Shown one piece after another: positions 11,901-49,108 of a stretch of 64,000 nucleotides of DNA. Source of the DNA: Staphylococcus sp. CAG:324 (GTDB taxonomy: Bacteria; Bacillota_I; Bacilli_A; ML615J-28; CAG-313); NCBI GenBank assembly GCA_000433035.1, contig FR890815.1, positions 85,800-149,799 on the forward strand, given 5' to 3'. The position numbers were made by a program, and so were the translations under genes. How positions within the stretch are numbered: position 1 is the first letter of the stretch; each line of letters opens with the position of its first letter. The notes beneath the pieces were generated by a model. The model had not been told where the DNA came from. It ran no database searches and saw only the letters and a program-made list of their open reading frames with translations.

Positions 11901-13151
11901 ATGAAAAAAATATTTAAAATTTTTACAATGTTTTTTGCATTACTAGTTGGCTTTGGTTTAATGAATATCGTATCAAAGGTTAAAGCAAGTAGTGATGTAG
12001 TGACTACTCCGTGGACCTTATCTTTTGATAATGGACAGGTTGTAAATATAGTTGAAGATCAAAGTCCTATTTCAGTTGTTGCTAATGGTTTTTCGGTTAC
12101 ATATAATGATTTAACAGGAAAAACCAGTGGTGGATATTTTGATATTTGGGTTGAGTGTCCTGGTGTGATACCTTATGAACCAAGAATTGAAAATCAATAT
12201 ATTGCTAATGGAGAAACATTAACGTATCAAATGGGAGGAAATTTAGACTTTGTATATTATTCTTATAATGAAGAAATGCAATATATGGATAGAATATGGG
12301 TACCTTTTTTTGTAGATCGTTCTATTGTTTCATCTAATCGTATATATACAAGTTTGACAGCTGGAAAATACTATTATAGTGAAACCGTTTCTTTTTCTGA
12401 TTTAGATTATGGAAGAGATCCGGATTTAGATTTGGTTATTGAGGGGAGAAATTTAACAACGGGCGAATATTTAGAAAGTAATTATGGTTATATGCATATA
12501 AGTGATGAAGGTGAGTATGAAGTAACCATTCGCGATAACCGAAAAAATCATACAAAAACATATCGATTTGCCATTGATAAAACAGCACCAATGATATATT
12601 TAGTAGAATGGGATTATTTTGTTGAAACCCCTATGCTAGAAGGATCAATTACAAATGCTGGTATGAAAGTGATTTATGGTGATAATATTAAAGTCAATCA
12701 AATGACTTATCAATATAAACCTTTCAATTCAAATAAAGTTGAAACGGGAAGTGTGGAAAATAATTTTATCTTTTGGCGAAAAGGTGAATATGTGATTACT
12801 GTTGTTGATATGGTAGGCAAGAGTGTGTCAACAACCTTTACAATATCAGAATTTGATATTGTTGCAGATCCAGATGGAGCCCAAACTTTAGGTACAGAAG
12901 TTACACAAAATGGAGGAGCAAAAGGGGGAACAACCCTTCATGTTGGCTATACGAGATGCTTATATTTAGGTGGGGATGCTCCAAGTCAATCTAGACTAGA
13001 TTACACATTCACATCTAGTAACCCATCAATTGCAACGGTTAGTAATTATGGAACTGTTATGGCTAAAGGGGCAGGAACAGTTGTAATTACTTGTGTTTTA
13101 AAGAGTAATCCTAGTAAAGTTTCTAAGATTATTTTAACAATATTACCATAG
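11901..13151 (+). CDS. secreted protein with C-terminal Big_2-like domain (paralog B)
   Basis: 416 aa. Signal peptide present. C-terminal ~100 aa near-identical to paralog A. N-terminal half diverged. Confidence 0.7.
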   Translation: MKKIFKIFTMFFALLVGFGLMNIVSKVKASSDVVTTPWTLSFDNGQVVNIVEDQSPISVVANGFSVTYNDLTGKTSGGYFDIWVECPGVIPYEPRIENQYIANGETLTYQMGGNLDFVYYSYNEEMQYMDRIWVPFFVDRSIVSSNRIYTSLTAGKYYYSETVSFSDLDYGRDPDLDLVIEGRNLTTGEYLESNYGYMHISDEGEYEVTIRDNRKNHTKTYRFAIDKTAPMIYLVEWDYFVETPMLEGSITNAGMKVIYGDNIKVNQMTYQYKPFNSNKVETGSVENNFIFWRKGEYVITVVDMVGKSVSTTFTISEFDIVADPDGAQTLGTEVTQNGGAKGGTTLHVGYTRCLYLGGDAPSQSRLDYTFTSSNPSIATVSNYGTVMAKGAGTVVITCVLKSNPSKVSKIILTILP

Positions 13152-15357: not shown

Positions 15358-15397
15358 AAAAAACCTTGTAAACAATTTACAAGGTTTTTATTTTTTT
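15358..15397 (+). terminator. rho-independent terminator
   Basis: AAAACCTTGTAAA...TTTACAAGGTTTT + T-run. Confidence 0.75.
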
Positions 15398-15550: not shown

Positions 15551-15745
15551 TTACCATTTTTTTCCAATAAAGTCAATAATTTAGTTAAAATAGATGAATT
15601 TTAATATAAATTTAATGTTTTAATGATACATTTAAAAATTCGTAAAGGTATACCTTTAAAGACGTTTTATAGTATAATTAAAAAATTAAATTATCTTATT
15701 TATAATAAATAATAAAGTTTTTTAATCAAACGGGAAGGAAGAAAG

Positions 15746-16438
15746 ATGTCTGAAAAAATACAAAGTCAATTAAAGCAAAATATAACTAAATTTGGAGTGT
15801 TAAATATAATTGGGGTTATATTATTGGTTATATTTTTACCATTGGTTATTTTAAATTTGATATTCATTATTCAAGGATGGATTCATCCAGACAAGGTACC
15901 AATGATTTTTGATACTGCCCCATTAATTGTTGTATCAGATTCAATGACAATTGAAAAAGATGAAAGTGGAAATATCATTAGTGGAGCTTTTAATAAAAAC
16001 GATTTAATTTTTATTAAAAAAGTAGATCCTACTACTTTAAAAGAAGGAGATATTATTACCTATGTTGCAAAGGATGGTTCAATTGTAACCCATAGAATTT
16101 TTTTGAAGGGAACCACAGAAGATAAAAATGCTTCTGCTTTTGTAATGAAAGGGGATTATAATACTTCAATTGATCAAGATCCCATTTCTTATAACCAAGT
16201 TGTGGGTCTTTATAAAGGAAGAATTGCGGGAATTGGTGGGGTGGCTAATTTTCTTCAATCACCAATTGGTGTCATTGTTGTTTTAGGATTGCCATTGGCC
16301 TGCATTTTAATTATTGATTTAATTAAAAAGAAAAAAGAAAATCAACTTGCTAATTCAAAAAACGCCGAATTAGAAACTGAACTAGCACAATTGAAAGCAG
16401 AAAAGGCGCAAAAGGGATGGAAAGATTCATCTCGTTAA
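15746..16438 (+). CDS. sipW: SipW-type (eukaryote/archaeal-like, S26B) signal peptidase I with C-terminal coiled-coil extension
   Basis: TM, then VVSDSMTIEK (SGSMEP-like Ser box), VTHRI (His box), MKGDYNTS, C-terminal TM, then ELETELAQLKAEKAQ coiled coil. RBS GGGAAGGAAG. Confidence 0.7.
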   Translation: MSEKIQSQLKQNITKFGVLNIIGVILLVIFLPLVILNLIFIIQGWIHPDKVPMIFDTAPLIVVSDSMTIEKDESGNIISGAFNKNDLIFIKKVDPTTLKEGDIITYVAKDGSIVTHRIFLKGTTEDKNASAFVMKGDYNTSIDQDPISYNQVVGLYKGRIAGIGGVANFLQSPIGVIVVLGLPLACILIIDLIKKKKENQLANSKNAELETELAQLKAEKAQKGWKDSSR

Positions 16439-16510
16439 GTTTTGGTATTCACATGGCCACACATGAAAATACATATATAAATTGATATATTAAATTTAAG
16501 GGAGGAAAAA

Positions 16511-17107
16511 ATGAAAAAAAATAAAATTTTTACATTAGGATTAGTTATTACTTTTGTTTTTGTCGTATCACTAACTTTAGTATCTGGAACATTTGCTAAA
16601 TATACATCGACAGTAACTGGTAATGACAGTGCAAGCGTTGCTAAATGGGCTTTTCAATATGGAACAAGCGAAGGAACGTTATCAGATGTTGATTTATCAT
16701 CAACTAAAACAATTGCATTCAATTTATTTGATACTATTTTAGACACAGATGGAGATCCAGAAACTGATGTAGCAGCAAATAAAATTGCTCCAGGAACAAA
16801 GGGTAGTTTTCAATTTGTAGTCAAAAATACTTCTGAGGTTAATGCAACCTTTGACTTAACACTAGAAGTAGTAGGTGCACAAGTACCATTTGAATATACA
16901 ATTCAAGTAGATGAAGGAAGTGCTAGCGAAGCATCTACTACCGTACCTAGTTTAACTACTCAAGCGATTGATATGAATACTTCTGTAACTGTTACAATCA
17001 CTTGGGAATGGCCATTTGATGGTAACGATACGGCTGATACAACTTTAGGATTAGCAGCATCTACTGTAGAGGTTAATGCAACAATTGTATTTGTTCAAGT
17101 TGACTAG
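16511..17107 (+). CDS. small secreted TasA/camelysin-like protein with SipW-cognate-type signal peptide
   Basis: MKKNKIFTLGLVITFVFVVSLTLVSGTFAKYTST (compare TasA ..GGGTWAAFND). T/S/V-rich beta-type sequence. C-terminal VTITWEWPFDGNDTADTTLG..NATIVFV motif shared with neighbouring genes. Confidence 0.55.
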   Translation: MKKNKIFTLGLVITFVFVVSLTLVSGTFAKYTSTVTGNDSASVAKWAFQYGTSEGTLSDVDLSSTKTIAFNLFDTILDTDGDPETDVAANKIAPGTKGSFQFVVKNTSEVNATFDLTLEVVGAQVPFEYTIQVDEGSASEASTTVPSLTTQAIDMNTSVTVTITWEWPFDGNDTADTTLGLAASTVEVNATIVFVQVD

Positions 17108-17290
17108 TATTTCAGTGTTATACATTTAAAGCCACAAGTATATATAAGCGCATAGATAGATTGTGGCCTATCAAAGCGCTTATATTTATGGCGTTAAACA
17201 GGATGGATGAAAAGATATATTTTTACTAAAGTATAGTTTCAAAAGGCAAAATGTATTTTATTAAAAATATAGTATAAGGAGGGAAGAACG

Positions 17291-18139
17291 ATGAAGAAAA
17301 AATATAAAAGTGCCCAGCGCTTATTAGGTTATCATGTATATTTCAACACAATCAGAGATTCTAATGGCCAAATAGTTGCCAAAATCAAAAGACATCAAAT
17401 TGTTTCCCATGATGATTTATTTTTTAAATCCGTTCTTAGTTCTAATACAATAATTGATGTAACTGCTAAGGAATTAAAGAATAGGAAGATCAAATATACC
17501 CTTTATAATGAACAAACTAAAGAAATATTTGCTAAGGCCGATCGTTTTTTTAACATCTATACCCTTGAAAATAATTATTTAGGTTCTTTTTTTAATTCAA
17601 CAAAGTCAATTCTCTTTATTATAAGATGTACTATTTTTGCTATTTTAGCACTTTTTATTAGTTTTGTTAGCCTACAAACGACTGGCAATCCAACAAGACC
17701 TAAAGAAATTGTGATTAGTGAAAGAGATGGGGACATTATTTTAGATGAATGGAATATTTTCGGTAGCCAAATAGGGGATAAAATTTTATATCCGGGAAAA
17801 ATGGGTGAATATTATTTTAGTATTACCAATCCTAATTCCAAAGATATTATACTATCAATCGAATTTACTGAAGATAATAAAGATACACTTCCTATTGTAT
17901 ACCGGTTGGTTTGTAAGAATGAATATCTTTGTGGTGAAACAAACAATTGGATTGATATTGATGAATTGTATGCTAATGAAATTTTAATTCAATCTAATCA
18001 AACCATACAATTTAGACTAGATTGGAATTGGCAAGATGTGGATAATGATGAATTTGAGACAGAATTAGGAATAGATAATAATGCAACCTATACCCTCTTT
18101 GTGGCCATTACTTCAATACTTATTTATCCAAATCATTAA
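17291..18139 (+). CDS. membrane-anchored protein with C-terminal TasA-like domain (TapA-like anchor/accessory candidate)
   Basis: Strong RBS AAGGAGGG. ~105-aa cytoplasmic N-term, one TM, then an extracytoplasmic domain. It ends IQFRLDWNWQDVDNDEFETELG..NATYTLFV, which aligns with the C-terminus of the 16511 gene. Confidence 0.5.
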   Translation: MKKKYKSAQRLLGYHVYFNTIRDSNGQIVAKIKRHQIVSHDDLFFKSVLSSNTIIDVTAKELKNRKIKYTLYNEQTKEIFAKADRFFNIYTLENNYLGSFFNSTKSILFIIRCTIFAILALFISFVSLQTTGNPTRPKEIVISERDGDIILDEWNIFGSQIGDKILYPGKMGEYYFSITNPNSKDIILSIEFTEDNKDTLPIVYRLVCKNEYLCGETNNWIDIDELYANEILIQSNQTIQFRLDWNWQDVDNDEFETELGIDNNATYTLFVAITSILIYPNH

Positions 18140-18165
18140 AAGAATTTGTAAGAAAGGAGCTACTA

Positions 18166-19347
18166 ATGGATAAAAAGACAACAAAAAATAAAATATGTAT
18201 TTTACTTGGCTTGCTGATATTGGCAACTGGTCTTGCCATTAGTGGTAAGATAGGTAGATCAACTACATTTGCTAAATATAAAACCATTATTGATTCAAAT
18301 TCTAGTACCTCAACTATTGCTAGGTGGGATATTCGAACGATAAAAAAAGATAAAACTGAAGTGAGTATGCTTGGTGAGGGGTTTAAATTATCACAAGCAG
18401 GTGAGAATGGCAATTGGTTTTTTACGATTTATAATTTATCAGATGTAAAAGCACAAATTGCAAAGGGATCTAAAATTCGTTTACGCCTTGATAGTGACAA
18501 TTTTATCAATAAACAAAATTTAACATGGAATTTTTTATCAGGAAATAACCCCATTACTTTTTCAATCTATTTATATCATTGTGATATTGCCCAAATTGTA
18601 AGTTATCAAAAACTAGATTCTTCTGAAATCATTTCGTTAGATGAATATTGCAATTTGACTTTAGAAGAACAAGCGAATTATCAAGAAAGAATTGATGAAA
18701 GTATAGATAAAACGTTGTTACTTCAAACCTCAGAAGAATTGATATTGAATAAAGCCATTGAGGAAAAAGATAATGGGAGTATTACTTATTTTTATGCTGA
18801 AAAGGACTTGAGTAGTTTAGCTCAAGAACTCATTGCTTTGGATATGGAAGGATACAAAACCTTTAGAGTGAATTGGAGTGTATCAGAAAGTAGTGCTGAT
18901 GTGGATGGAATTCAAGCAAAATATCAAGCTTATCGACTATCAGATACCAATATAGGCTTTGATGGTTTAGTACAAACATATGAAATTCAAGGCAAAACGT
19001 ATTATCTTGGTTATAATGAATATGATTATTTTGATTATTTAAACTATATATCACAAACGGGTGTAAATGGTGAACCAGCTTTTGTTTTTCCTAATACTAA
19101 TGGTATTGTTGGACAAACGATGAAGGTTGCTTATTCTAATCTTACAACTTCTCAAAAAACGCAAATTGAAAATTATGTGGCAGGAAATACACTAGAAAGT
19201 TTAGAAAAAGTTGTTGAAAGAAATACATATGAAATGTATGAAACATTTTTACACGATAAAATAGATTTTGAAAATAGTTTAGGATATCTTCAATATGGAC
19301 TATATTGTAGTATCATTTTTGATTTAAAAATAGAACAGGTAGACTAG
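18166..19347 (+). CDS. secreted protein with SipW-cognate-type signal peptide
   Basis: ..LLILATGLAISGKIGRSTTFAKYKTI. Internal FRVNWSVSESSADVDG segment resembling the shared motif. RBS AAGGAG. Confidence 0.5.
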   Translation: MDKKTTKNKICILLGLLILATGLAISGKIGRSTTFAKYKTIIDSNSSTSTIARWDIRTIKKDKTEVSMLGEGFKLSQAGENGNWFFTIYNLSDVKAQIAKGSKIRLRLDSDNFINKQNLTWNFLSGNNPITFSIYLYHCDIAQIVSYQKLDSSEIISLDEYCNLTLEEQANYQERIDESIDKTLLLQTSEELILNKAIEEKDNGSITYFYAEKDLSSLAQELIALDMEGYKTFRVNWSVSESSADVDGIQAKYQAYRLSDTNIGFDGLVQTYEIQGKTYYLGYNEYDYFDYLNYISQTGVNGEPAFVFPNTNGIVGQTMKVAYSNLTTSQKTQIENYVAGNTLESLEKVVERNTYEMYETFLHDKIDFENSLGYLQYGLYCSIIFDLKIEQVD

Positions 19348-19351
19348 TCCA

Positions 19352-19879
19352 ATGTTAAAGATAATTTATAAATTCATTTCTTTTTTTCTTGCATTTTTCT
19401 TTGTTATTCTTTTTCTTTTCTTATCAGTGTATTTGATAAAAAGAATAATTGATAAAGATCAACCAACTACTGTTTGGGGCATTGCTTTTTTTGAGGTATC
19501 TACAGGCAGTATGGAACCAGAAATAATGATTGGTGATTTGATCATTACTAAAAAGATAAAAGATGATCAGTATCAAGTAGGCATGATTGTTACATATTTG
19601 CCACCAAATGCTAAAACACCAGTTACCCATCAAATTGTAAAGCGTGATGGTAATATTATTACAACAAGAGGAATAAATGAAGAAACAAACAATATTGATG
19701 ATGAACCTTTTGATGTATCATGTATTATTGGTAAAAAAATAGGAATATGGCACCAATATAATCGATTTGCCAATTTCATTAAATCTCCATTTGGCATTAT
19801 TGTTTTTGTTTTGGGCGGATTTTTAATTATTGAGGGGTATGTATATATTGATAAAAAAATAAAAAAAGTAATCAAGTAA
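19352..19879 (+). CDS. sipW: SipW-type signal peptidase I (second copy)
   Basis: TM, then VSTGSMEPEIMIGDLIITKK (canonical SipW SGSMEP box), VTHQI, TTRGINEE, C-terminal TM. 175 aa, same architecture as B. subtilis SipW. Confidence 0.8.
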   Translation: MLKIIYKFISFFLAFFFVILFLFLSVYLIKRIIDKDQPTTVWGIAFFEVSTGSMEPEIMIGDLIITKKIKDDQYQVGMIVTYLPPNAKTPVTHQIVKRDGNIITTRGINEETNNIDDEPFDVSCIIGKKIGIWHQYNRFANFIKSPFGIIVFVLGGFLIIEGYVYIDKKIKKVIK

Positions 19880-19910
19880 GTAAAGATATACTTTATTTAG
19901 AAAGGAGAAG

Positions 19911-20531
19911 ATGATGAAGAGAAAATATTTGCTCATTTTATATTTAGTTTTTGTATGTGTAGTTTTAATCACATCATCAACTCTAGCTAAATATATTCAC
20001 ACATCTACAACTAAAACTAGTTTTACAATTGGTGATAAATTATATTTTAATTATGAAAGATCGGATTTATTTAGAAATAATCAGTTAATTGTAGGATATG
20101 AAACCGAATATGATGATGATGGCATCATCCATAAAAGAATTGAAACAATGAATGTAATGCCAGGAGATGATTTAAGTTACCATTTTTATGTCAGCAATTA
20201 TAATTCAAAAACATTAGATTATAATGGGTTAGTAGGCGAGTTTCTTCCTATTACCACCGCAATGATTTCACTTCCTGTAAAAGGGCAAACGTATGATGTC
20301 AATTGTACAATAAGTTTTAGGCAAGTACCTACAGATGGAAGTGTAGCAACAACACAATTTTCATTGTTGACTAATAAGATAGCTTTACCACCATATGAAC
20401 AAGAAAAGGTAAAATATGAATTTAAAATCAATTGCATTTTAGATGATCAGTTATCAAATACAACAAGTGATGACTATTTTGGAGCAACTTTATCCATTTA
20501 CTTATTTATCAATGCTGCATCTAGTATTTAA
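19911..20531 (+). CDS. small secreted TasA-like protein with SipW-cognate-type signal peptide
   Basis: ..LITSSTLAKYIHTST. C-terminal YEFKINCILDDQ..DDYFGATLSIYLFI resembles the shared C-terminal strand motif. RBS AAAGGAG. Confidence 0.5.
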   Translation: MMKRKYLLILYLVFVCVVLITSSTLAKYIHTSTTKTSFTIGDKLYFNYERSDLFRNNQLIVGYETEYDDDGIIHKRIETMNVMPGDDLSYHFYVSNYNSKTLDYNGLVGEFLPITTAMISLPVKGQTYDVNCTISFRQVPTDGSVATTQFSLLTNKIALPPYEQEKVKYEFKINCILDDQLSNTTSDDYFGATLSIYLFINAASSI

Positions 20532-20554
20532 TCCATAGAAAGAAGGAGGATTTT

Positions 20555-21733
20555 ATGATAGAAAGAAAAATATTTAATATGCGGTTACATGTTTTACTGA
20601 TGTTAGTATTTTTATTTGTTATTCTTTTACTTGTCAATATATCATTCAATCCGACTTCATCAAGATATATTAAACAAGAAAAAGATGAGATTTTGGCTTT
20701 ATATACTTCTCTTTATTTTAATAGTGATAGAAATCATATGAGTATGTCATTAGAAGATAACAAAGGGTATGTGAATTTTAAATTGATGAATTATATTGGT
20801 GAAGATGTTACGCAAAGAGATATTGAATATATAATTGAAAAACCTTCTAAATTTTATAACTCTAAAGGCGAAGTTATGGAAAACCCTAGTGGTGAGGAAG
20901 ATTTGTATGTTTTAGATGTATGGGGAAAACCTAAAAAAATTGGTAATGATACATATAAATATCAATCAACAATTGTTCAAAATGATGGAGAAATAAGCGA
21001 TGGGGGAAATTATACTTTTCTATATGAAAAACTGGGTTCTAGTGCCGTGGGCAAAACCCATAATTTAACAATTCAGATGGTTAGAGAAGAAAGTACTGAA
21101 ATGACAAGAGTAGAAAATGTTTCTGTGGTAGTTCAACTCATCAAACCTTATCGAGAAGTTTTTATTATCGATATTCTTGTTTCTAATCGATTAATTGTTT
21201 TTTCTCAAACTGTGAGTGAAGTTTTTGAAACACAAAATCAAGTTCTTTATATTCAATCAAGTAATATCTATTCACATTATAAAAGCAATGGTGAATATTA
21301 TCCGAGAACAGCAAATATCAATGGTGAGGTTTATGAATATACTTCTAAAGCATTTTTGGTTACAATTTATTGGGATCATGTCTTGTTAAATCTTCATATG
21401 TTAGATGATATTCATATAGGTATTGGTGAAAACCCTAGTAATTTAGATATTACAAAACCTTATATTGTTGATGTTTACACTCAGAAAGACCGCGGATATT
21501 TAGAAATATATATTCCTCAAGCTTCCAATTTTCATTTGAATTTTTTACCAACCACAACTGCTTATACAATAGATGCGAAAATTGAAGTATGTGTCAGAAA
21601 AAATGATGGTTTAGAAACCTATGTTTTATATGATGAACAGTTTGGAGGATATGAACATATTAAAAAGGCTAATTTGCCTAATAAAAATGATGAAAATGTA
21701 GATCAAGAAGTTGTGAATCTTGTTACGAAATAA
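20555..21733 (+). CDS. secreted protein, SipW-cognate-like N-terminus
   Basis: Hydrophobic segment then NPTSSRYIKQ (same [ST]-x-[AS]-[KR]-Y pattern). 392 aa. RBS GAAGGAGG. Confidence 0.5.
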   Translation: MIERKIFNMRLHVLLMLVFLFVILLLVNISFNPTSSRYIKQEKDEILALYTSLYFNSDRNHMSMSLEDNKGYVNFKLMNYIGEDVTQRDIEYIIEKPSKFYNSKGEVMENPSGEEDLYVLDVWGKPKKIGNDTYKYQSTIVQNDGEISDGGNYTFLYEKLGSSAVGKTHNLTIQMVREESTEMTRVENVSVVVQLIKPYREVFIIDILVSNRLIVFSQTVSEVFETQNQVLYIQSSNIYSHYKSNGEYYPRTANINGEVYEYTSKAFLVTIYWDHVLLNLHMLDDIHIGIGENPSNLDITKPYIVDVYTQKDRGYLEIYIPQASNFHLNFLPTTTAYTIDAKIEVCVRKNDGLETYVLYDEQFGGYEHIKKANLPNKNDENVDQEVVNLVTK

Positions 21734-21754
21734 AAAAGAAAGGAGATAGCAACG

Positions 21755-24700
21755 ATGAGAAAAATTTTTACAATTGGCTCAATAGTGATGTCGGCTTTCA
21801 TCGGAATCGTAGTGATTTGTCTGATTGCTTTTATCATTAAACCTCAAGAGAAAGTAAATGCGGCCGAAGAATATACCCTAACGGTAAACAAAGTTTCTAC
21901 AATTAGTGTGTATGTTAGCGGTCAAGGAGTAAAACTAAAGGATAGTACTTTAGATGTGGATACCTATATTGTAGAGGAAAATACAGAAGTTACGATTAGA
22001 GCAATTAATGAATCAAGAATTTTTCAAAGTTGGGTTATTACAGATGATAATAATCAAACTTTACCTCAAAATGGTGCTACTACTCATATCTTGTCTTTTA
22101 TTCCTAATTGTAATATGCATATTGCAACGATGAGAAAAGATGCCACAACAGAAGATTATGGTAGATATATGTATAATCGTTTTTTAATTGAAACCGCACA
22201 AGATTTAATTGATTTACAAGATATTATTGCTTATGGAAACAATGTCAAAGATACTGATACAAGCATCATTGAAAAATATGATCATTTTTATGATAAATTT
22301 AGTGAATATGCGAATTTAACCACCAATAAAGAAAAGGCTAATTTTATTATCAATCATAATTTATATGATCGCCTTCAAACGGGATACTTTTTAGTTGCCA
22401 ATAATTTATCTTTATATGATGAAAATTTTACAGGAATTGGCAATAAAAACAGACCATTTAGAGGTGTTATGTGTGGACTTAGTAATAATGAAATCTCAAG
22501 TATTTTTTTAACATTAAGTACTACGGAGGCTAGTGATGAACATTATTATGGTCTTTTTGGTTATCTAGATAAAGAAGCAGTTGTTAGAAATTTGAATATT
22601 ACAACTAGCATTGGTATTAGTAAAAATGAGTCTATTAGTCAAAACACAATTTATGCAGGGGGTCTAGCAGGGCAAATCAATGAGGCTTTACTTTCTAATG
22701 TGACAGTAAAATTAAGTACAGGTATTCATGCTAATGATGCTACCATTTATGTTGGAGGGATTGCCGGAAAGATGAATGGCGGACTTGATGAAATGAATAC
22801 AGTCAAATATGATGGCAATCAAGGAAGTTGGATTATTCAATCAAACTCTAGTCATAATATATATGTCGGTTTAGTATCAGGATATGGAACAAATGTCTAT
22901 ATCAATCGTTTTGATGTGGATACATCGGGACTTTCAATTGATGTAAGCAATTTTAAGATGGGAAATTACAATACCAATAGTAATATTTATGCGGGAAATC
23001 TTTTTGGTTATTTAGACATCACAAAGGATACAAGAATCAATCATATTCATTTTAATGGTAAACAAAAACAAACACTCTATGCTAGTATGAATATTGGCAA
23101 TGCATATGTCGGAGGATTAGTAGGATATGTATATGCGAATGCTAATTTAGATGTCGGAGTTGTTCAATTTGATAATAGTGATAGTGAAAAATCCCTATTT
23201 ACAGCTCAATCATTAGATAGCAATAGTCAAGCCAATGTATATACTGCTGGTCTTTTTGGTTATGTGTTAGGGAATTATTTAAATGCGAATGAGGATTTTA
23301 AAAATGCCATTACAACTACAGAAATTGATGGGAAAATAGTATATAACTATCGATATTTGTTTAATGGTAACTATCAAATCCAATCTTTACAAAATGGTAA
23401 AGAAGACAAAAACAATACTTTTGGTAAAAGTATTGCGGGGGGGATTGTTGCGAAGGGTTTGTTTAACATAAATGGTCTTTCGGAAAATCAAAGAAGTGAA
23501 ATCTTTTTATCTAGTGAACAATCATCTTTTCAAGTTAGTGCTATACAGACAAGTTCCGCTAATCATATAGAGGGGAAACAAATTGATATAACAACGGATA
23601 AGGAGCACTGTATTGCAGGATTAGTATTTGGTGTAATATCCAAAGAAACTTTTGCGTATACCTTTAAAAATATAAATATCTATGCTAATCATGCGGATGT
23701 TTTAGCAATTAGAGAAATAGGGTCTTTAGGAATCGGTGATCTATCAACTGGTGGTTTTATCGGTTATTCGATGGGAACAAGTTATTCAAATATAGCATTG
23801 TATTTAAATAATGGATCAATTCAATCAAGAAGTTTATCTTATGAAACTAAAAATGCTCAAGTTGATACCAATAATACATATTGTGGTGGCTTTATTGGTG
23901 ATTTTAGAGGACCAAATGCTACAATGCATAATATTAAGATAGACGGGTATGATTTTAAAAATCAAAAACAAATGGGGACAACAACGAAAATCGAATCCAT
24001 TCAAAACACTATTCCAGGGGGAGGAGATTATAGAGGAGAAAACTATACTGGTGGTCTAATTGGGCGAATTTATCAAGTATCTCGTGTTGAGGCATCATCC
24101 TATATTGGTTCAAATTTAGATACAGATAGCATTCAAATGCAAGGTCATGAAAGTCCAGATAGTGCTTTTTGTGGTGGTTTAATTGGATTTATTAAAAATA
24201 ATGCTAAGACAGATACGGAAAAAATCATCCTTTCTAATTGTATGGTTAAAAATGCTTTAATAGATGGAAGGGCAACCACAACAATTATATATGGAAATCC
24301 TGATATATATGTTTCGGGTTTAGTGGGAGCATGTTATACTTCAGATTCATTTAATACAGTATATATTGAAAGTTCTAACGTATATCATAGCACTATTCAA
24401 TGTTTGGGCAATGAACGAATTGAGGCTTTTGCATCAGGTATTTTAGGAGCAGCCACTTGGGCGGGAACGCATTATATAAATGATTGTTATGTATATGGAT
24501 CTAAAATTGTGGCAACTTCTAATTCCGCCACTGATTTGGCAACTCCACGTAAAGATAATGCCTATGTTGCCGGAATTTGTTCACATCTAACATCAACAAC
24601 AATGTATGTCAATCATTGTGTAGTTGTAGACTCTTTGTTAGATTCAATCTCTCAAAATGGTGATTCATTTGCAAGTGGAATGGTTTATCATTATCAATCG

Positions 24701-27700
24701 AGTAATATACAAATAGAAAATTGTTATACAAACTCCTATCTCAATACTGCAAGTAATAATTATCCAATTACAAATAGAGGTAGTTGCAATAGAAGTTATT
24801 ATGTTTTGCAAAATGTAACTCATGTTTCTTCTGATTTAGGAATTGCCTTAGATTTTTCAAGACAACAAGTAAGTGGTAAAAATGTGCGTATTACAAGTAT
24901 TTTAACTGGATTGAATAATGATGATGGAATGGGAATAAAAATATTGCCAGTTTTAAAATCGAATGAATATTTTAACATAAACAATGGTGGTACTAGTAAT
25001 ATCGTTTCGCTTGATTATATTGGACAAGATAATGATCGAAGGACAAATATTATCAATATTTGGATCAATGCCAAAGAAGAAGGTAGCAGTAGGAGTCCAA
25101 ATGAATACGATGACTTTGAGGCAATGTATAATGATGGATGGTTCGATTTAGGTGAAATCATTATTTATAATCAAGAAAAAGATACTAGTAATGAAAAGAA
25201 TAATATTGAATTTTTGGAAACATATTATATAGATCAAGATAATAAGTATGTATATGATAGAAAGACCTCAGATGGGAAAACGTATTTAAAGAATGTAAAT
25301 TATCCTTTTAATTTAATTCAAAGCGGTTATGAAGAAATAGGGAGTAGTGAGGTAATCAAGGATATTTCCGTCATTAGAGAATATATTGTAAAAATATATG
25401 ATAATATGCCTTATATGCAATTCCAATTTAAAGTGAAAAAAGAAATCCCTATATATTTAAATACTTTATGGGATTCTAATGGCAATGAAACAATTGTAGA
25501 AAATGATTCCATCATTGGAATTGGAGAATTCAACTATACGTATGAAATTGTCGATGCATATACTGTTTATACCATTACATGGGTTCCTAATCAATTATTA
25601 AAAGAAGATCAAACTTTTTATTTATCTTTTAAAATCGGTAGTGGTAATTTTTATGATGAATCTTGTCTAAAGTTTAGTTTAAAAGCAAACAAAAAGAAGT
25701 TAGAAGGGGTCACTTTTGCGGAATACACACCACCTATCAATTATTATTTAGCAGGTATTGATGAAACGTTGGGTGTAACGAAAGATAATCCTTATTTATT
25801 AAGAGCAGGATCAATTACTAAATTTATTCCAATCATTCAAAAAGTAAATGATTTTGATAATACGCAATATTATGATGATACAAATGCTGAGTATGTAACA
25901 TATGAATCAACATATGGTACAATAAAAAGCAGTGGTGATTTAATTGTTAATCAAGTTTCGAATCAAGTCTATCAAATCACAGTTACGTTAAAAGATGACC
26001 CAACTCAAAAACAAGTCATTTATTTTAAAGTAATTGATCAGTATAGTGTTTCTTATACTACAATAGGAGCCAATATGGAGTGTATAACTTACGCTTCAAG
26101 TAGCAGTGATTACTATTTTAAAATTGTTTCAAAAGCGAATTATAGTAGCATTCCTAATCAATTTATTATCAATATTGGCAGTCAAACTTATGATTTATTA
26201 AATGATTTTAATGGAATTAGAGTTTATGATGATAATATGAATCAAATAGATACATTTATTGATAATGTAAAATATTATGAAATATATGTTCCTAGTAATT
26301 TAATAACAGGAGAAATGAATATATCTATTGTTTTTCCTATTATATATACAATAACATTAGATTTACAATGTGGTGATTTTAACCATCATTTTATTGAATC
26401 CGAACAAAAAGTATATCGATTAGTTGAGAATACTAGCTTTAAAGATTTCTTTACAAGCGATTTAATCAATGAAATCAATGATTGGGTTCAAAGTGCTACC
26501 CTTTTTGGTTATGTGTTTACGGGATTTTATTTGGTTTCTAATGCGAATAGTGAAAATGCTTATGGTGAAAGTTTAGATTCAATTCAAGAATCTGATATGA
26601 AGATTACTGCCTCACTTACTTTTTATGCAAGATGGAGTTTTTTAATTGAATTAGTAGAAGCTCCTGGTACTAAAATAGTAACTAGTTTTCCAGATTCATA
26701 TATGAAAGATTATTATGAGGAAAATCTGCTTAATCAAACCATTCAAATTCCCATTAACAATAATAGGGGATATGTATTTACAGTTAGCAAAGAGGATAAT
26801 TTTGTTGGCGAGGCATATGTTGAGGCTTTTATAATAAATTTAATTGGTGAGGAAAAACAAATTACAGAAATACCAATTGAAAAATATTTTGATAATATGT
26901 ATTTATATTATATCGCTCCTGAAAAAATAACAGGATATTTAGTTATTGCTACTTCAATTAGCAATTCAGAGTTAATTGTGGGAGAAAATACAGCTTCAGT
27001 TACAGAAGAAATTTTACCAGAGGATGGTATTTATACTTTTAAATATATTGTAAATCATAAAAATACAAATGAGGAAACTTCATATATTTATAATAGTGGA
27101 ATTGAAGAAAATCCGTCTAGCAACCTTTCCTTAAATAAAGATTTTCTTTTACAATTTAAACAACAAAGTTTTGATGGTAACCACACGAATATTATAGATA
27201 GAACCTTAGATTTAGGTACTGTTATTGATGTTTATTATCGAAAAATGGTAAATGGAGTGGAGACAGATAGAATTGTAGGAACTTATAAGGTAAAAGATGA
27301 AAAGATATCCCAATTACAATTAAGTGCTTTTACGCTTTGGGATTTACAAACACCAGCCTTTCCTGTTGAAACATTTCAAGATTTTCTAGGTAATGAGGAA
27401 GAAGTTTCAGAAATATATTATTTTGTCATTACTCCACCTAATGGTATATGTAGTAAAGTAGAAAATGAAATTATAAATTATATTATTTATGCGGGATATT
27501 ATAATTCGACTACTTTTGACTTTGTTGAAGGAATTAGAAATAATGAAGGGTTTGCTAATATTCCGATTGAAGATACTTTAATAGATCAAGTTATGATTGA
27601 GTCAAGTAAGCAAAGCAGAATATATTCAGTTACTCCTTCTCGACATACTGATTTGATAAAAGATGAAGAGAATAGTTTTACATTTATTGATGAAACAACC

Positions 27701-28459
27701 TATCATCTTTTTGATCTTGTGGCAACTGATGCCAAAATTCAAAATGGAATATTCTATTTGTTTGATGATGAAGATCAAAATAGTATAATTGTTTCTAAAG
27801 AAATGAAATTTGGATTAAATGCTTTAAGGTTAACTTTAGGATATAATTTAGGTAGTGTAGCTATTTATGGTAGTGGGGATGGTATCCTTTGGCAGTTCGT
27901 TGATACCATTTATGTTGATACATTAGAAAATAAAATTTATGAAGTTGATTTTAGTTCTTTTGATTATAATTATTTTAAAATTGATAATACCTCATACAAT
28001 GAAATTCATTTGAAAGAAGTAGAAGTTATTGCTAAATCAAATGGTATGCGTTATCAAACAGATTTTAGTAATCAATCCCATTTTGTTATACATGAAAACT
28101 ACATCACTTATACCTTGAATACAAAATTACAAGGTGATATTCGACATGATGGCAAAACTTTTATGCTTGCTACTCAGTTTATAGAAAAGAATGGGATTTG
28201 TGAAAGTATGGGCAAGATTCAATTAAGCGTTATGATTGATGATCAAATCATTTTTGTTGATGCCATAGATGATGATGCTGTAGGAAAGAATGTAGTTTAT
28301 TTTAATTTAAGTTCCATCTTACAAACGTATAGTCTAGAACAAATAAAGTTTTCCATTATTATGCCAGAATCTATATCGTTATATGCTGTTCAATTATTAG
28401 AATCTACTACGATTTATAAGCCTGCAATGTCAGAGGTAAGAAAAACAATAATCAATTAA
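21755..28459 (+). CDS. giant (2234 aa) surface adhesin-like protein: GLUG-motif repeat region, Listeria-Bacteroides repeat, C-terminal beta-sandwich domains
   Basis: Signal-anchor then VNAAEEYT. More than 14 GG[LIV][AIV]G repeats (YAGGLAGQ, YVGGIAGK, YVGGLVGY, STGGFIGY, YCGGFIGD, YTGGLIGR, FCGGLIGF, YVSGLVGA ...) between roughly nt 22600-24600. Flg_new-like GYVFTGFY...FYARW near nt 26520-26640. RBS AAAGGAG. Confidence 0.7.
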   Translation: MRKIFTIGSIVMSAFIGIVVICLIAFIIKPQEKVNAAEEYTLTVNKVSTISVYVSGQGVKLKDSTLDVDTYIVEENTEVTIRAINESRIFQSWVITDDNNQTLPQNGATTHILSFIPNCNMHIATMRKDATTEDYGRYMYNRFLIETAQDLIDLQDIIAYGNNVKDTDTSIIEKYDHFYDKFSEYANLTTNKEKANFIINHNLYDRLQTGYFLVANNLSLYDENFTGIGNKNRPFRGVMCGLSNNEISSIFLTLSTTEASDEHYYGLFGYLDKEAVVRNLNITTSIGISKNESISQNTIYAGGLAGQINEALLSNVTVKLSTGIHANDATIYVGGIAGKMNGGLDEMNTVKYDGNQGSWIIQSNSSHNIYVGLVSGYGTNVYINRFDVDTSGLSIDVSNFKMGNYNTNSNIYAGNLFGYLDITKDTRINHIHFNGKQKQTLYASMNIGNAYVGGLVGYVYANANLDVGVVQFDNSDSEKSLFTAQSLDSNSQANVYTAGLFGYVLGNYLNANEDFKNAITTTEIDGKIVYNYRYLFNGNYQIQSLQNGKEDKNNTFGKSIAGGIVAKGLFNINGLSENQRSEIFLSSEQSSFQVSAIQTSSANHIEGKQIDITTDKEHCIAGLVFGVISKETFAYTFKNINIYANHADVLAIREIGSLGIGDLSTGGFIGYSMGTSYSNIALYLNNGSIQSRSLSYETKNAQVDTNNTYCGGFIGDFRGPNATMHNIKIDGYDFKNQKQMGTTTKIESIQNTIPGGGDYRGENYTGGLIGRIYQVSRVEASSYIGSNLDTDSIQMQGHESPDSAFCGGLIGFIKNNAKTDTEKIILSNCMVKNALIDGRATTTIIYGNPDIYVSGLVGACYTSDSFNTVYIESSNVYHSTIQCLGNERIEAFASGILGAATWAGTHYINDCYVYGSKIVATSNSATDLATPRKDNAYVAGICSHLTSTTMYVNHCVVVDSLLDSISQNGDSFASGMVYHYQSSNIQIENCYTNSYLNTASNNYPITNRGSCNRSYYVLQNVTHVSSDLGIALDFSRQQVSGKNVRITSILTGLNNDDGMGIKILPVLKSNEYFNINNGGTSNIVSLDYIGQDNDRRTNIINIWINAKEEGSSRSPNEYDDFEAMYNDGWFDLGEIIIYNQEKDTSNEKNNIEFLETYYIDQDNKYVYDRKTSDGKTYLKNVNYPFNLIQSGYEEIGSSEVIKDISVIREYIVKIYDNMPYMQFQFKVKKEIPIYLNTLWDSNGNETIVENDSIIGIGEFNYTYEIVDAYTVYTITWVPNQLLKEDQTFYLSFKIGSGNFYDESCLKFSLKANKKKLEGVTFAEYTPPINYYLAGIDETLGVTKDNPYLLRAGSITKFIPIIQKVNDFDNTQYYDDTNAEYVTYESTYGTIKSSGDLIVNQVSNQVYQITVTLKDDPTQKQVIYFKVIDQYSVSYTTIGANMECITYASSSSDYYFKIVSKANYSSIPNQFIINIGSQTYDLLNDFNGIRVYDDNMNQIDTFIDNVKYYEIYVPSNLITGEMNISIVFPIIYTITLDLQCGDFNHHFIESEQKVYRLVENTSFKDFFTSDLINEINDWVQSATLFGYVFTGFYLVSNANSENAYGESLDSIQESDMKITASLTFYARWSFLIELVEAPGTKIVTSFPDSYMKDYYEENLLNQTIQIPINNNRGYVFTVSKEDNFVGEAYVEAFIINLIGEEKQITEIPIEKYFDNMYLYYIAPEKITGYLVIATSISNSELIVGENTASVTEEILPEDGIYTFKYIVNHKNTNEETSYIYNSGIEENPSSNLSLNKDFLLQFKQQSFDGNHTNIIDRTLDLGTVIDVYYRKMVNGVETDRIVGTYKVKDEKISQLQLSAFTLWDLQTPAFPVETFQDFLGNEEEVSEIYYFVITPPNGICSKVENEIINYIIYAGYYNSTTFDFVEGIRNNEGFANIPIEDTLIDQVMIESSKQSRIYSVTPSRHTDLIKDEENSFTFIDETTYHLFDLVATDAKIQNGIFYLFDDEDQNSIIVSKEMKFGLNALRLTLGYNLGSVAIYGSGDGILWQFVDTIYVDTLENKIYEVDFSSFDYNYFKIDNTSYNEIHLKEVEVIAKSNGMRYQTDFSNQSHFVIHENYITYTLNTKLQGDIRHDGKTFMLATQFIEKNGICESMGKIQLSVMIDDQIIFVDAIDDDAVGKNVVYFNLSSILQTYSLEQIKFSIIMPESISLYAVQLLESTTIYKPAMSEVRKTIIN

Positions 28460-28513: not shown

Positions 28514-28542
28514 TTGACAAATTAAAAAAAATATGTTATAAT
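28514..28542 (+). promoter_or_regulatory. textbook sigma-A promoter TTGACA-17-TGnTATAAT
   Basis: TTGACA 28514-28519; extended -10 TGTTATAAT 28534-28542. Confidence 0.65.
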
Positions 28543-49045: not shown

Positions 49046-49074
49046 TTGAATTTAATTTTTTTAAATGTTATAAT
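49046..49074 (+). promoter_or_regulatory. sigma-A type promoter of lipoprotein gene
   Basis: TTGAAT, 17 nt, TGTTATAAT (extended -10). Confidence 0.45.
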
Positions 49075-49108
49075 CTATTATAAATTAAATAAGATAGGAA
49101 GGGAAAAA

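What the first reader, a model, noticed from the sequence alone, without database searches (positions are those of the whole stretch)
15746..28459. Dual-SipW locus: two S26B signal peptidases, a family of TasA-like paralogs with a shared signal motif, and a 2234-aa GLUG adhesin
Eight co-oriented, tightly spaced genes. Two paralogous SipW-type signal peptidases (15746 with SDSM box and a coiled-coil tail; 19352 with canonical SGSMEP) each precede secreted proteins. The N-termini of those proteins share hydrophobic-[ST]-[FLS]-[AS]-[KR]-Y-x-[ST] (GTFAKYTST, TTFAKYKTI, STLAKYIHT, TSSRYIKQ; the giant protein has NAAEEYT). This parallels the SipW-cognate signals of B. subtilis TasA/TapA (..TWAAFND, ..SAAFHD). 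Four of them also share a C-terminal strand motif (h.h.W.W....D....D..LG....NAT..hFV): 16511, 17291, a variant in 18166, and an I.C variant in 19911. 17291 adds a ~105-aa cytoplasmic domain plus TM, as a TapA-like anchor might. The locus ends in a giant GLUG/Flg_new adhesin. Together this looks like a SipW-processed fibre with minor subunits, an anchor and a tip adhesin. It would be functionally analogous to sortase pili but built on the TasA/SipW principle, with two dedicated peptidases. I am not aware of a described system with this composition.
Basis: partly seen in the sequence, partly recalled or inferred. Interest (0 to 1): 0.85.

Follow-up and report, generated by a model that had tools for sequence, protein, structure and literature searches.

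The report
Dual-peptidase TasA-like pilus gene cassette
This is a real eight-gene operon, conserved across many gut Firmicutes but still annotated only as hypothetical proteins, that most likely builds a TasA-like surface fibre from signal-peptidase-processed subunits using two anciently diverged dedicated peptidases.

Summary
The eight genes form a discrete operon. Both peptidases pass the archaeal/ER-type signal peptidase model TIGR02228 and keep the Ser/His/Asp residues.

The motif [AGSTC][KR][YF] at the end of the signal helix occurs in 55/56, 42/50 and 35/46 cassette genes, against 6/159 flanking genes. C-like proteins lack it and keep an uncleaved membrane anchor.

The order SipW1, major subunit, anchor, SipW2, minor subunits, giant protein recurs across Bacilli and Clostridia. 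Forty of 45 loci with enough flank carry both peptidases. The two peptidase classes are old paralogues (112/112 best hits fall within the same class).

Verdict: a new variant of a known kind (TasA, BsaA, Tafi and AbpX donor-strand fibres). Interest is moderately high.

The parts
15359..15389 (+). Terminator-like hairpin ending the upstream gene; left boundary of the operon
   Evidence: 14-bp stem followed by a T-run
15678..15706 (+). Candidate sigma-70-type promoter for the operon (weak evidence)
   Evidence: 10 of 12 consensus match, 40 nt upstream of sipW1. Promoter-like sites are not enriched in this AT-rich region.
15746..16438 (+). SipW class 1 signal peptidase (230 aa). It has two TM helices, the SDSM box, THR, GD.N...D and a cytoplasmic coiled-coil tail.
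   Evidence: TIGR02228, 63.6 bits against 51.85; conserved residues; forms a distinct orthologous class.
16511..17107 (+). B, the putative major fibre subunit (198 aa). Signal helix, predicted cleavage GTFA|KYTS, a conserved N-terminal extension, and a jelly-roll body.
   Evidence: large family with no name; fold closest to the TasA fibre subunit; signal peptide aligns to that of TasA; the N-terminal extension is the most conserved segment but is unstructured in the monomer model.
17142..17185 (+). Stable hairpin in the 183-nt gap after the major-subunit gene; possible attenuator or mRNA-stability element
   Evidence: region MFE -42.4 kcal/mol, z = -3.27 against shuffles. Function is inferred only.
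17291..18139 (+). C, the putative membrane anchor or terminator subunit (282 aa). Cytoplasmic N-terminal segment, one TM helix (107-125), and a B-like ectodomain. It has no cleavage motif and no donor-strand motif.
   Evidence: hhalign to B 99.6%. C-like proteins lack A[KR]Y (9/55) and VAKW (3/55) but keep W.W (54/55).
18166..19347 (+). D, an enlarged B-like minor subunit (393 aa) with TFA|KYKT, VARW and a C-terminal IEQVD. Found only in the Bacilli version of the cassette.
   Evidence: hhalign to B 97.9%; present in W, L001, L004, L009, L013 and L032.
19352..19879 (+). SipW class 2 signal peptidase (175 aa) with the canonical SGSMEP box and two TM helices
   Evidence: TIGR02228, 63.2 bits..
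19911..20531 (+). F, a small B-like minor subunit (206 aa) with predicted cleavage STLA|KYIH
   Evidence: hhalign to B 99.5%; 42/50 genes at this position carry the motif.
20555..21733 (+). G, a conserved motif-bearing protein (392 aa, SS|RYIK) with no detectable B-like body of its own. Candidate strand-only cap or adaptor.
   Evidence: G against the Clostridial second-gene group 93.9%; that group against F 90.7% and against B 88.9%; G against B directly 1.6%; 35/46 genes at this position carry the motif.
21755..28459 (+). H, a 2234-aa surface protein. TM/signal with an AxA site, a β-sandwich (39-128), a helical linker, and a β-helix of about 800 aa with ten Y.GG[LIF].G motifs. The C-terminal half is conserved but unassigned.
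28514..28542 (+). Perfect consensus promoter for the downstream ftsW-murG-murB genes; right boundary of the operon
   Evidence: 12 of 12 match with an extended -10 TG

Best explanation
The operon encodes a sortase-independent, membrane-anchored surface fibre of the TasA superfamily. It is assembled by donor-strand complementation, and cleavage of the signal peptide by dedicated SipW-type peptidases gates each step.

SHOWN
- There are two catalytically intact S26B peptidases of two ancient classes.
- B, C, D and F are paralogues with a jelly-roll fold closest to the TasA fibre subunit.
- The conserved site [small][K/R][Y/F] lies right after the signal helix. By alignment to the known TasA cleavage site, it is cut between A29 and K30 of B.
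- The mature N-terminal 18 residues of B are its most conserved part, yet they are unstructured in the monomer model.
- C-type proteins keep the body but lack both N-terminal motifs and keep their TM helix.
- The gene order is conserved across Bacilli and Clostridia.

INFERRED
- Each subunit is exported by Sec and stays tethered by its signal helix.
- Its groove captures the free N-terminal strand of the previously cleaved subunit.
- A SipW then cuts it, which frees its own strand for the next subunit.
- The tip forms first. G has a strand but no pilin body and acts as a cap or adaptor. F and D are minor pilins. These steps are probably served by SipW2.
- B is then polymerised, probably by SipW1.
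- C has a groove only and cannot be cleaved, so it takes the last strand. This stops growth and holds the fibre in the membrane.
- The giant GLUG-type β-helix protein H is exported through an ordinary AxA site. It is presented by the fibre or alongside it as the binding module.
For: Peptidases:
- Family membership.
- Catalytic residues kept in both classes.
- Two TM helices each.
- 112/112 best hits fall within the same class, with about 30% identity between partners in one locus.
- Both classes are present in 40/45 loci with enough flank.

Subunits:
- hhalign B-C 99.6%, B-F 99.5%, B-D 97.9%.
- B model pLDDT 83.
- Foldseek to 8aur prob 0.99 with the best TM-score, and to AbpA prob 0.96.
- The best PDB sequence hit of the B profile is AbpX, through the APG...N..V.A motif (E 0.02).
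- Mature B has pI 4.05 and 14% Asp+Glu, as reported for AbpX-like proteins (10.64898/2026.01.04.697558).

Cleavage site:
- hhalign places lvS-GTFA|KY on LVGGGTWA|AF of TasA.
- Chain 8aur starts at residue 28 of TasA.

Motif and anchor:
- Motif statistics.
- The N-terminal extension has mean conservation 0.77, against 0.38-0.44 for the variable body segments (residues 48-91 and 113-160). Its pLDDT is 57-67.
- Anchors lack the motifs.
- The anchor in L060 carries a Pro/Thr-rich linker.

Synteny and precedent:
- Synteny.
- No LPxTG motif in any of the six proteins.
- Giants in other loci carry adhesin-type repeats (BspA LRR, DUF285, Flg_new).
- Precedent for the cleavage-coupled strand-exchange model is BsaA of C. 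perfringens (10.1101/2024.11.04.621531).
- Precedent for a TM-plus-jelly-roll anchor is TafF (PMC12337348).
Against: - No filament has been seen and no experiment exists for any member.
- Profile-profile comparison with the TasA family aligns only the signal peptide, at 4.8% probability.
- The AbpX hit is marginal (E 0.02).
- H lacks the motif and a B-like domain was not detected in it (probability at most 2%), so its link to the fibre rests on synteny alone.
- G's pilin relationship is only transitive.
- The assignment of substrates to each peptidase is pure inference.
- Some loci manage with one peptidase (L018, L028, L045, L067, L087).
Confidence: 0.6

Rival explanations
1. The genes build a released biofilm-matrix scaffold (TasA, BsaA or AbpX style bundles or hydrogel), not a discrete anchored pilus with a tip. 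B polymerises into matrix fibres. The other paralogues nucleate or modulate polymerisation, as TapA and CalY do. The giant protein is merely a co-regulated surface adhesin.
For: - The closest structural and sequence relatives are matrix proteins: TasA fibre, AbpA and AbpX.
- B is very acidic (pI 4.05), like the calcium-responsive AbpX family (10.64898/2026.01.04.697558).
- H lacks the motif and a B-like domain was not detected in it.
Against: - A groove-only, non-cleavable, TM-anchored paralogue is conserved in nearly every locus. Some copies have long wall-spanning linkers. These features point to cell attachment.
- The conserved set of minor subunits and the linked giant protein fit a tipped pilus better than a matrix.
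Confidence: 0.2
2. There is no polymer. The B-family proteins are monomeric Ig-like or jelly-roll surface proteins. The conserved [K/R]Y N-terminus is only a sorting or recognition signal for two specialised signal peptidases, which form a private secretion and maturation route for a set of envelope proteins.
For: - The motif is shared by proteins with unrelated bodies, such as G and the giants with DUF285, LRR or Flg_new repeats in L031, L011, L014 and L043. This is what a pure sorting signal would look like.
- Fold matches are generic β-sandwiches at similar scores.
Against: - Conservation extends 18 residues past the cut site (KYTS..G.D.A.VAKW). That is far more than a peptidase needs, and this segment is unstructured in the monomer model.
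- The anchor paralogue specifically lacks this segment while keeping the body.
- The best full-length structural match is a donor-strand fibre subunit.
Confidence: 0.13
3. The cassette makes a spore-associated appendage or coat-linked fibre. TasA was first described as the spore-coat-associated protein CotN, and the cassette would be expressed during sporulation of these spore-forming Firmicutes.
For: - The window encodes CotJB and a CotJC-like Mn-catalase at 31839-32803, so the organism probably sporulates.
- Several sources name TasA homologues 'spore coat-associated protein N'.
Against: - No sporulation promoter or regulator is linked to the operon.
- The cotJ genes lie beyond the ftsW-murG-murB genes and have their own context.
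- The cassette sits in different neighbourhoods in different genomes.
- Nothing in the proteins is spore-specific.
Confidence: 0.05

Closest known systems
Bacillus subtilis tapA-sipW-tasA (TasA fibres; Pfam PF12389, TIGR04088 signal)
   Same: - A dedicated S26B (SipW-type) peptidase is encoded beside its substrates.
- The signal peptide ends in GT[WF]A, followed by an aromatic residue at +2.
- The subunit has a jelly-roll body whose best structural match is the TasA fibre.
- The N-terminal extension is available as a donor strand.
   Different: - There is no sequence membership. PF12389, TIGR04088 and TIGR04087 are not met, and profile-profile comparison of the mature part fails.
- This cassette has two peptidases, not one.
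- It has five paralogous or motif-bearing substrates plus a giant protein.
- Its accessory subunit is a TM-anchored, groove-only paralogue. TapA, by contrast, is a secreted strand donor.
Clostridium perfringens sipW-bsaA-bsaB-bsaC (10.1101/2024.11.04.621531; PMC7395162)
   Same: - It is a Clostridial SipW operon with several TasA-like paralogues and a large extra secreted protein.
- The proposed mechanism has a membrane-tethered incoming monomer that captures the free N-terminal strand and is then cut by SipW.
- The oligomers are membrane-associated.
   Different: - It has a single SipW.
- BsaA locks its subunits with an N35-K74-E56 isopeptide. The equivalent triad is not conserved here: PG...N.[ST][ED] occurs in only 16/60 B-type proteins.
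- BsaC is a VWA protein, not a β-helix giant.
- No TM-anchored paralogue is described.
Archaeal Tafi pili (TafA/E pilins, TafC tip, TafF anchor, TafD signal peptidase, TafG DUF5305; PMC12337348, PMC11821415)
   Same: - This is the closest match in architecture.
- It is a TasA-superfamily strand-donation pilus locus with a dedicated signal peptidase, major and minor pilins and a tip protein.
[quoted passage not shown]
   Different: - It is archaeal and often Tat-dependent. Here the signals are Sec-type (MKKNK plus a hydrophobic helix).
- Its accessory factor is a DUF5305 protein, not a second peptidase. No DUF5305 hit was found here.
- No sequence relationship was tested or found.
AbpX-type loci of archaea and Bacillota (10.64898/2026.01.04.697558; PDB 9sj2, 9rhp)
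   Same: - AbpX is the best sequence hit of the B profile in the whole PDB.
- The subunits are acidic with low pI.
- The loci contain minor subunits, tip proteins and a signal peptidase.
   Different: - The hit is marginal (E 0.02).
- The AbpX-associated peptidases are described as having ten TM helices, whereas both peptidases here have two.
- The bacterial AbpX anchors described are SLH or LPXTG proteins. Here the anchor is a TM paralogue, and no LPxTG motif is present.
Type V pili of Bacteroidota, and chaperone-usher and sortase pili (functional analogues only)
   Same: - Assembly follows the order tip, then stalk, then anchor.
- In type V pili, proteolytic maturation of each subunit enables strand exchange, and an uncleaved anchor subunit terminates and holds the pilus.
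   Different: - The subunit folds, proteases (gingipain or sortase) and envelope are unrelated.
- No usher, chaperone or sortase is encoded here.
- This comparison rests on established knowledge of those systems, not on a test made here.

Membership tests
Peptidase S26B / TIGR02228 (archaeal/ER-type signal peptidase I, SipW type) | HMM score above the curated cut-off | tested here: met
   63.6 bits (15746) and 63.2 bits (19352) against a cut-off of 51.85. Pfam Peptidase_S26 is only sub-threshold for 19352 (18.5 against 22.9) and gave no hit at E<=1 for 15746.
Peptidase S26B / TIGR02228 (archaeal/ER-type signal peptidase I, SipW type) | Catalytic Ser (S-M box), His (TH[RQ]) and the Asp-containing G(D).N...D box | tested here: met
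   S-M, H and G...N...D are conserved at >=80% in both position classes. The window proteins have SDSM/THR/GDYN..D and SGSM/THQ/G..ETNNIDD.
Peptidase S26B / TIGR02228 (archaeal/ER-type signal peptidase I, SipW type) | N-terminal and C-terminal TM helices flanking the catalytic domain | tested here: met
   TM helices at 24-42 and 174-192 (sipW1), and at 11-29 and 142-160 (sipW2).
Bacillus SipW equivalog (NF046067) | HMM score above the cut-off of 190 bits | tested here: not met
   59.2 and 46.3 bits. They are SipW-type peptidases but not SipW orthologues.
TasA / camelysin (Pfam PF12389 Peptidase_M73) | HMM match to PF12389 | tested here: not met
   no hit at E<=1 for B, C, D, F or G. PF12389 is not among the 25 most-matched families listed for the 83 B-family members (91 families matched in all; the rest were not shown). 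All TasA homologues carry it.
TasA / camelysin (Pfam PF12389 Peptidase_M73) | Profile-profile homology of the mature domain to the TasA family | tested here: not met
   only the signal peptide aligns (28 columns, probability 4.8%).
TasA superfamily (fold level: TasA, AbpA, AbpX, TafE, thread) | Jelly-roll or β-sandwich subunit structurally similar to solved fibre subunits | tested here: met
TasA superfamily (fold level: TasA, AbpA, AbpX, TafE, thread) | N-terminal donor strand inserted into the neighbouring subunit | not testable with these tools
   The evidence is indirect. The mature N-terminal 18 residues are the most conserved segment but are unstructured with low confidence in the monomer model. 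No multimer prediction was available.
SipW-cognate signal peptide (TIGR04088) | HMM match, or the shared motif at the cleavage site | tested here: inconclusive
   TIGR04088 gave no hit at E<=1 for the eight window proteins and is not among the families listed for the B family. hhalign does align lvS-GTFAKY with LVGGGTWAAF of TasA in register with the known cut. F gives a weak TIGR04087 hit over its signal region only (E 0.0045).
GLUG repeat proteins (Pfam PF07581) | HMM match above 20.5 bits | tested here: not met
   7.8, 10.0 and 9.7 bits in three segments; none of the 120 listed homologues has PF07581 on record.
GLUG repeat proteins (Pfam PF07581) | Right-handed β-helix like the GLUG-bearing domain of IgA1 proteases | tested here: met
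Flg_new / Listeria-Bacteroides repeat (PF09479) | HMM match in the giant protein | tested here: not met
   no hit at E<=10 in seven overlapping segments. A few larger homologues carry it, as does the giant protein in L011.
Sortase-dependent Gram-positive pili | LPxTG sorting signals and a pilus-specific sortase in the locus | tested here: not met
   no LPxT[GASN] motif in B, C, D, F, G or H; no sortase among the eight genes.
Tafi / AbpX-type pilus loci | Dedicated signal peptidase, pilin paralogues and a TM-plus-jelly-roll anchor | tested here: met
   The layout of C matches the description of TafF in PMC12337348.
Tafi / AbpX-type pilus loci | DUF5305 accessory protein and a Tat signal or ten-TM peptidase | tested here: not met
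   no DUF5305 hit; each peptidase has two TM helices. The signals are Sec-type with no twin arginine.

The most novel reading that the evidence does not exclude
Gut and rumen Firmicutes possess a widespread and so far unrecognised pilus pathway. In it, signal-peptide cleavage is itself the assembly step. Two non-redundant SipW paralogues act in order: class 2 starts the tip complex and class 1 drives stalk elongation. Each cut releases the donor strand that the next membrane-tethered subunit captures. A non-cleavable paralogue terminates and anchors the fibre. This would be a protease-ratcheted, sortase-free and chaperone-free counterpart of type V and chaperone-usher pili in Gram-positive bacteria.
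Probability: 0.3. Interest if true: 0.8.

Novelty: new variant of a known kind. Interest (0 to 1): 0.62.

Why it matters
The major-subunit family alone has 8,758 cluster representatives (50% identity) at E <= 0.001 in public data. It is found in Lachnospiraceae, Oscillospiraceae, Christensenellaceae, Erysipelotrichaceae, Coprobacillus and 'Mollicutes'-type gut Bacilli. Yet it has no Pfam or NCBIfam model and is annotated as 'hypothetical protein'.

If it makes fibres, it is probably a major and unstudied adhesion or aggregation organelle of commensal Firmicutes, with variable giant proteins as the specificity modules. The conserved pair of dedicated signal peptidases raises a clean question that can be tested directly: why does a fibre need two? 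The answer bears on how TasA-like fibres are ordered and anchored in general.

A cultured, genome-finished carrier exists: Enterocloster asparagiformis DSM 15981 (locus L060).

Tried and rejected
- **Direct sequence membership in TasA/camelysin.** Rejected. There were no PF12389 or TIGR04088 hits for the window proteins or among the families listed for 83 family members. hhalign against a 35-sequence TasA alignment aligned only the signal peptide.
- **The giant protein as a fibre subunit.** hhalign of the B, C, D, F and G profiles against the H alignment gave at most 2% probability. Its signal is an ordinary AxA site.
- **An intermolecular isopeptide lock as in BsaA.** K45, N106 and E109 are invariant or nearly so among close B homologues. 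Across all loci only 30/60 B-type proteins keep PG...N, and only 16/60 keep N.[ST][ED]. This remains an untested lead at most.
- **The UniRef name 'Pilin isopeptide linkage domain protein'** for the E. asparagiformis homologue. It could not be reproduced with NCBIfam.
- **One SipW acting as a sortase-like transpeptidase.** Rejected on chemistry. The acyl-enzyme of a signal peptidase carries the signal peptide, not the mature chain.
- **The two peptidases as a recent redundant duplication.** Rejected, because 112/112 best hits fall within the same class.
- **Searches that yielded nothing or could not run.** The search for related loci with the 33-sequence alignment failed for lack of a conserved stretch, so a 14-sequence alignment was used instead. 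The afdb50 fold library was unavailable. An Rfam scan found no regulatory RNA in the locus. Literature searches for a dual-SipW system found nothing.

Full report
**1. The observation**

The window is AT-rich (about 29% G+C). Between 15746 and 28459 it carries eight co-oriented ORFs of 230, 198, 282, 393, 175, 206, 392 and 2234 aa. I call them A (sipW1), B, C, D, E (sipW2), F, G and H. Each follows a Shine-Dalgarno sequence, and the gaps between them are 4-183 nt. A terminator-like hairpin closes the upstream gene at 15359-15389. A perfect consensus promoter at 28514-28542 opens the downstream ftsW-murG-murB genes. The locus is therefore a discrete unit.

**2. The peptidases**

Both A and E exceed the curated cut-off of TIGR02228, the archaeal/ER-type signal peptidase I family to which SipW belongs. 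They score 63.6 and 63.2 bits against 51.85. Both fall far below the Bacillus SipW equivalog model. Each has an N-terminal and a C-terminal TM helix.

I recovered 56 related loci that carry two such genes. In them the Ser-Met box, the His and the G(D).N...D box are conserved at 80% or more in both the first and the second peptidase. The first-position enzymes are longer (median 232 against 190 aa). They share a Pro/Asn pair in TM1 and a cytoplasmic coiled-coil tail with the motif L..EL..L.

For all 112 sequences, the best BLAST hit outside the sequence itself belongs to the same position class. The two partners of one locus are only about 30% identical. The two peptidases are therefore ancient, co-inherited paralogues and not a recent duplication.

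**3. The small proteins**

None of B, C, D, F, G or H matches any Pfam or NCBIfam family. B has 479 homologues in the word-indexed search. The exhaustive HMM search found 8,758 cluster representatives at E <= 0.001. The 120 homologues listed by the word-indexed search carry no source name, and only two have a Pfam entry, the unrelated PF14905. Where NCBI names exist they read 'hypothetical protein'.

The family alignment shows these motifs: MKKN, a hydrophobic helix, (S)GT[FWY]A[KR]YTS..G.D.A.VAKW, then NLFDT, IAPGT.G.F.....N.SEV.A, P, W.W.F....DT.LG and finally F.QVD.

I built alignments of each cassette position from the related loci and compared them profile against profile.
- B-C: 99.6% probability over 207 columns.
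- B-F: 99.5%.
- B-D: 97.9%.
- C-F: 96.3%.
- D-F: 96.8%.

G is related to the roughly 250-aa protein that occupies the same position in Clostridia (93.9%). That group is related to F (90.7%) and to B (88.9%). G against B directly is not significant.

**4. Is it TasA-like?**

By sequence family it is not. PF12389 and TIGR04088 do not appear among the hits for the window proteins, nor among the families listed for 83 B-family members. hhalign of the B alignment against a 35-member TasA alignment aligned only the signal peptide. Every member of that TasA alignment carries PF12389.

By fold and context it is. The AlphaFold model of B has mean pLDDT 83.
- Foldseek gives 8aur the highest probability (0.99) and the highest TM-score. 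AbpA scores 0.96, and chaperone-usher pilins also appear in the list.
- The best sequence hit of the B profile in the whole PDB is AbpX, a TasA-superfamily fibre protein. The match runs through the APG...N..V.A segment at E 0.02.
- Mature B is acidic, with pI 4.05 and 14% Asp+Glu. This is as reported for the AbpX family (10.64898/2026.01.04.697558).

These scores are modest and generic β-sandwiches score nearly as well. I therefore treat superfamily membership as probable, not proven.

**5. The signal motif**

hhalign places lvS-GTFAKY of B on LVGGGTWAAF of TasA. The solved TasA fibre chain begins at residue 28, that is, after GTWA. This predicts cleavage of B at GTFA|KYTS.

The motif lies immediately after the hydrophobic helix (helix 5-25 in the model).

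Across the related loci I counted the motif [AGSTC][KR][YF] at the end of an N-terminal hydrophobic segment.

| Position | Genes with the motif |
|---|---|
| First gene after SipW1 | 55/56 |
| First gene after SipW2 | 42/50 |
| Second gene after SipW2 | 35/46 |
| Third gene after SipW2 | 0/29 |
| Flanking genes with an N-terminal TM | 6/159 |

The conserved part extends well beyond a cleavage site. Residues 30-47 of B have a mean conservation of 0.77, against 0.38-0.44 for the variable body segments (residues 48-91 and 113-160). Yet they are coil with pLDDT 57-67 in the monomer model. This is what one expects of a donor strand.

**6. The anchor**

In nearly every locus, the gene after B encodes a protein with one TM helix, a cytoplasmic N-terminal segment of variable length, and a B-like ectodomain. 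This group keeps the W.W strand (54/55). It lacks A[KR]Y (9/55) and the VAKW motif (3/55). B-type proteins have these in 59/60 and 58/60 cases.

In Enterocloster asparagiformis the TM helix and the B-like domain are separated by a long Pro/Thr-rich linker. C therefore has a body that can accept a strand, has no strand of its own, and cannot be released by a signal peptidase. This is the layout described for the Tafi anchor TafF (PMC12337348) rather than for TapA.

**7. The giant protein**

H has 130 homologues of 1,300-3,100 aa. All that carry a source name are called hypothetical, and a few have Flg_new repeats. Homology extends to Clostridia: 27% identity to a Borkfalkia protein that sits in a B-C-SipW-F-G-H locus.

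H has no HExxH and no LPxTG motif. Its signal ends in VNA|AEEY, an ordinary AxA site, as do the signals of its orthologues. No B-like domain was detected in it.

In other loci the giant protein is different. Examples carry DUF285 plus BspA-type LRR, or Flg_new plus DUF285. When the giant directly follows F, it often carries the [KR]Y motif. The giant thus behaves as a variable surface module. Its attachment to the fibre in this window is inferred from synteny alone.

**8. Conservation**

A scan of one genome per species with two B-derived peptide patterns found 187 relatives. The hosts include 'uncultured Mollicutes' UMGS116 (80% identity to B), other gut Bacilli, Acholeplasmatales, Erysipelotrichaceae, Coprobacillus, Lachnospiraceae, Oscillospiraceae, Christensenellaceae, Syntrophomonas, Pelotomaculum, and the cultured Enterocloster asparagiformis DSM 15981.

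The order SipW1, B, C, SipW2, F, G-like, giant recurs throughout, and in unrelated genomic contexts. Of 45 loci with enough flanking sequence, 40 have both peptidases and all have at least one. D and H-type giants are restricted to the Bacilli version and a few Clostridia.

**9. Mechanism proposed**

The following is shown:
- the parts list;
- the peptidase classes;
- the cleavage-site register;
- the complementary presence and absence of strand and body in B/D/F (both), C (body only) and G (strand only).

The following is inferred. Subunits are exported by Sec and held by their signal helix. The groove of the incoming subunit captures the free N-terminal strand of the last cleaved subunit. 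A SipW then cuts the newcomer. G, F and D start the fibre, B extends it, and C ends it and anchors it. H is displayed with it.

The same cleavage-coupled strand-capture scheme has been proposed for BsaA of C. perfringens (10.1101/2024.11.04.621531). The idea that class 2 serves the tip genes next to it and class 1 serves B is a guess based on gene adjacency.

**10. Comparison and novelty**

The kind is known. It comprises TasA-superfamily donor-strand fibres with a dedicated signal peptidase, minor subunits, a tip and an anchor, as in TasA/TapA/SipW, BsaA, Tafi and AbpX loci.

Three things appear new. Five full-text searches found no description of them.
- This large, unmodelled subunit family.
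- Its [KR]Y-type signal and donor segment.
- The strictly conserved pair of two-TM SipW paralogues, which stands in the place of one peptidase with or without a DUF5305 partner.

I rate it a new variant of a known kind.

Noticed in passing
window 17142-17185 (in the 183-nt gap between B and C): A stable hairpin (AUAUAAGCGC...GCGCUUAUAU) sits right after the putative major-subunit gene. The region folds at -42.4 kcal/mol, z = -3.27 against shuffles. It could raise the ratio of B to the downstream genes, as attenuators do in fimbrial operons.
   Followed up: partly
window 10621-11874 and 11901-13151; also 1260-5033 and 49046-52072: Two tandem paralogous secreted proteins (61.5% identical) carry a C-terminal Big_2 domain. 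A 1257-aa Big_2 protein and a 1008-aa Flg_new protein also lie in the window. All have ordinary signal peptides without the [KR]Y motif. The window is rich in surface proteins that do not depend on the cassette.
   Followed up: partly
window 31839-32803: CotJB and a CotJC-like Mn-catalase are encoded here. The organism is therefore probably a spore-former with a cell wall (ftsW, murG and murB are adjacent), even though its nearest public relative is labelled 'uncultured Mollicutes'.
   Followed up: no
L087 5071-16276 (Candidatus Borkfalkia, high G+C): This is a single-peptidase version of the cassette (B, C, one SipW, F, G, H) with an H orthologue 27% identical to the window's. L018, L028, L045 and L067 also have only the downstream peptidase. 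These are natural experiments on whether the second peptidase is dispensable.
   Followed up: partly
L060 10745-12268 (Enterocloster asparagiformis DSM 15981): The anchor paralogue carries a Pro/Thr-rich repeat linker of about 150 aa (PTDPTDPTEP...) between the TM helix and the B-like domain. In other loci the anchor reaches 900-1364 aa. This would suit spanning the cell wall.
   Followed up: no
P0251 = WP_007716618.1 (B homologue of E. asparagiformis): UniRef calls it 'Pilin isopeptide linkage domain protein' while NCBI calls it hypothetical. I could not reproduce any such model hit.
   Followed up: yes
window 15746-16438, TM1 (residues 24-42) and tail (residues 196-230): First-position SipWs conserve a Pro and an Asn inside TM1 and a cytoplasmic coiled-coil tail. 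Second-position SipWs have neither. A polar residue inside the membrane and a cytoplasmic tail suggest a partner protein, perhaps the cytoplasmic domain or TM helix of C. This was not tested.
   Followed up: no
window 17291-17610 (C residues 1-105) and L087 6233-7159: The cytoplasmic N-terminal segment of C contains short repeats of the form 'D.NG..I..I' (IRDSNGQIVAKIK...). The distant Borkfalkia anchor has similar repeats (DADGRLLCGIDKRGIFDLNGKQI). The segment has no family match.
   Followed up: no
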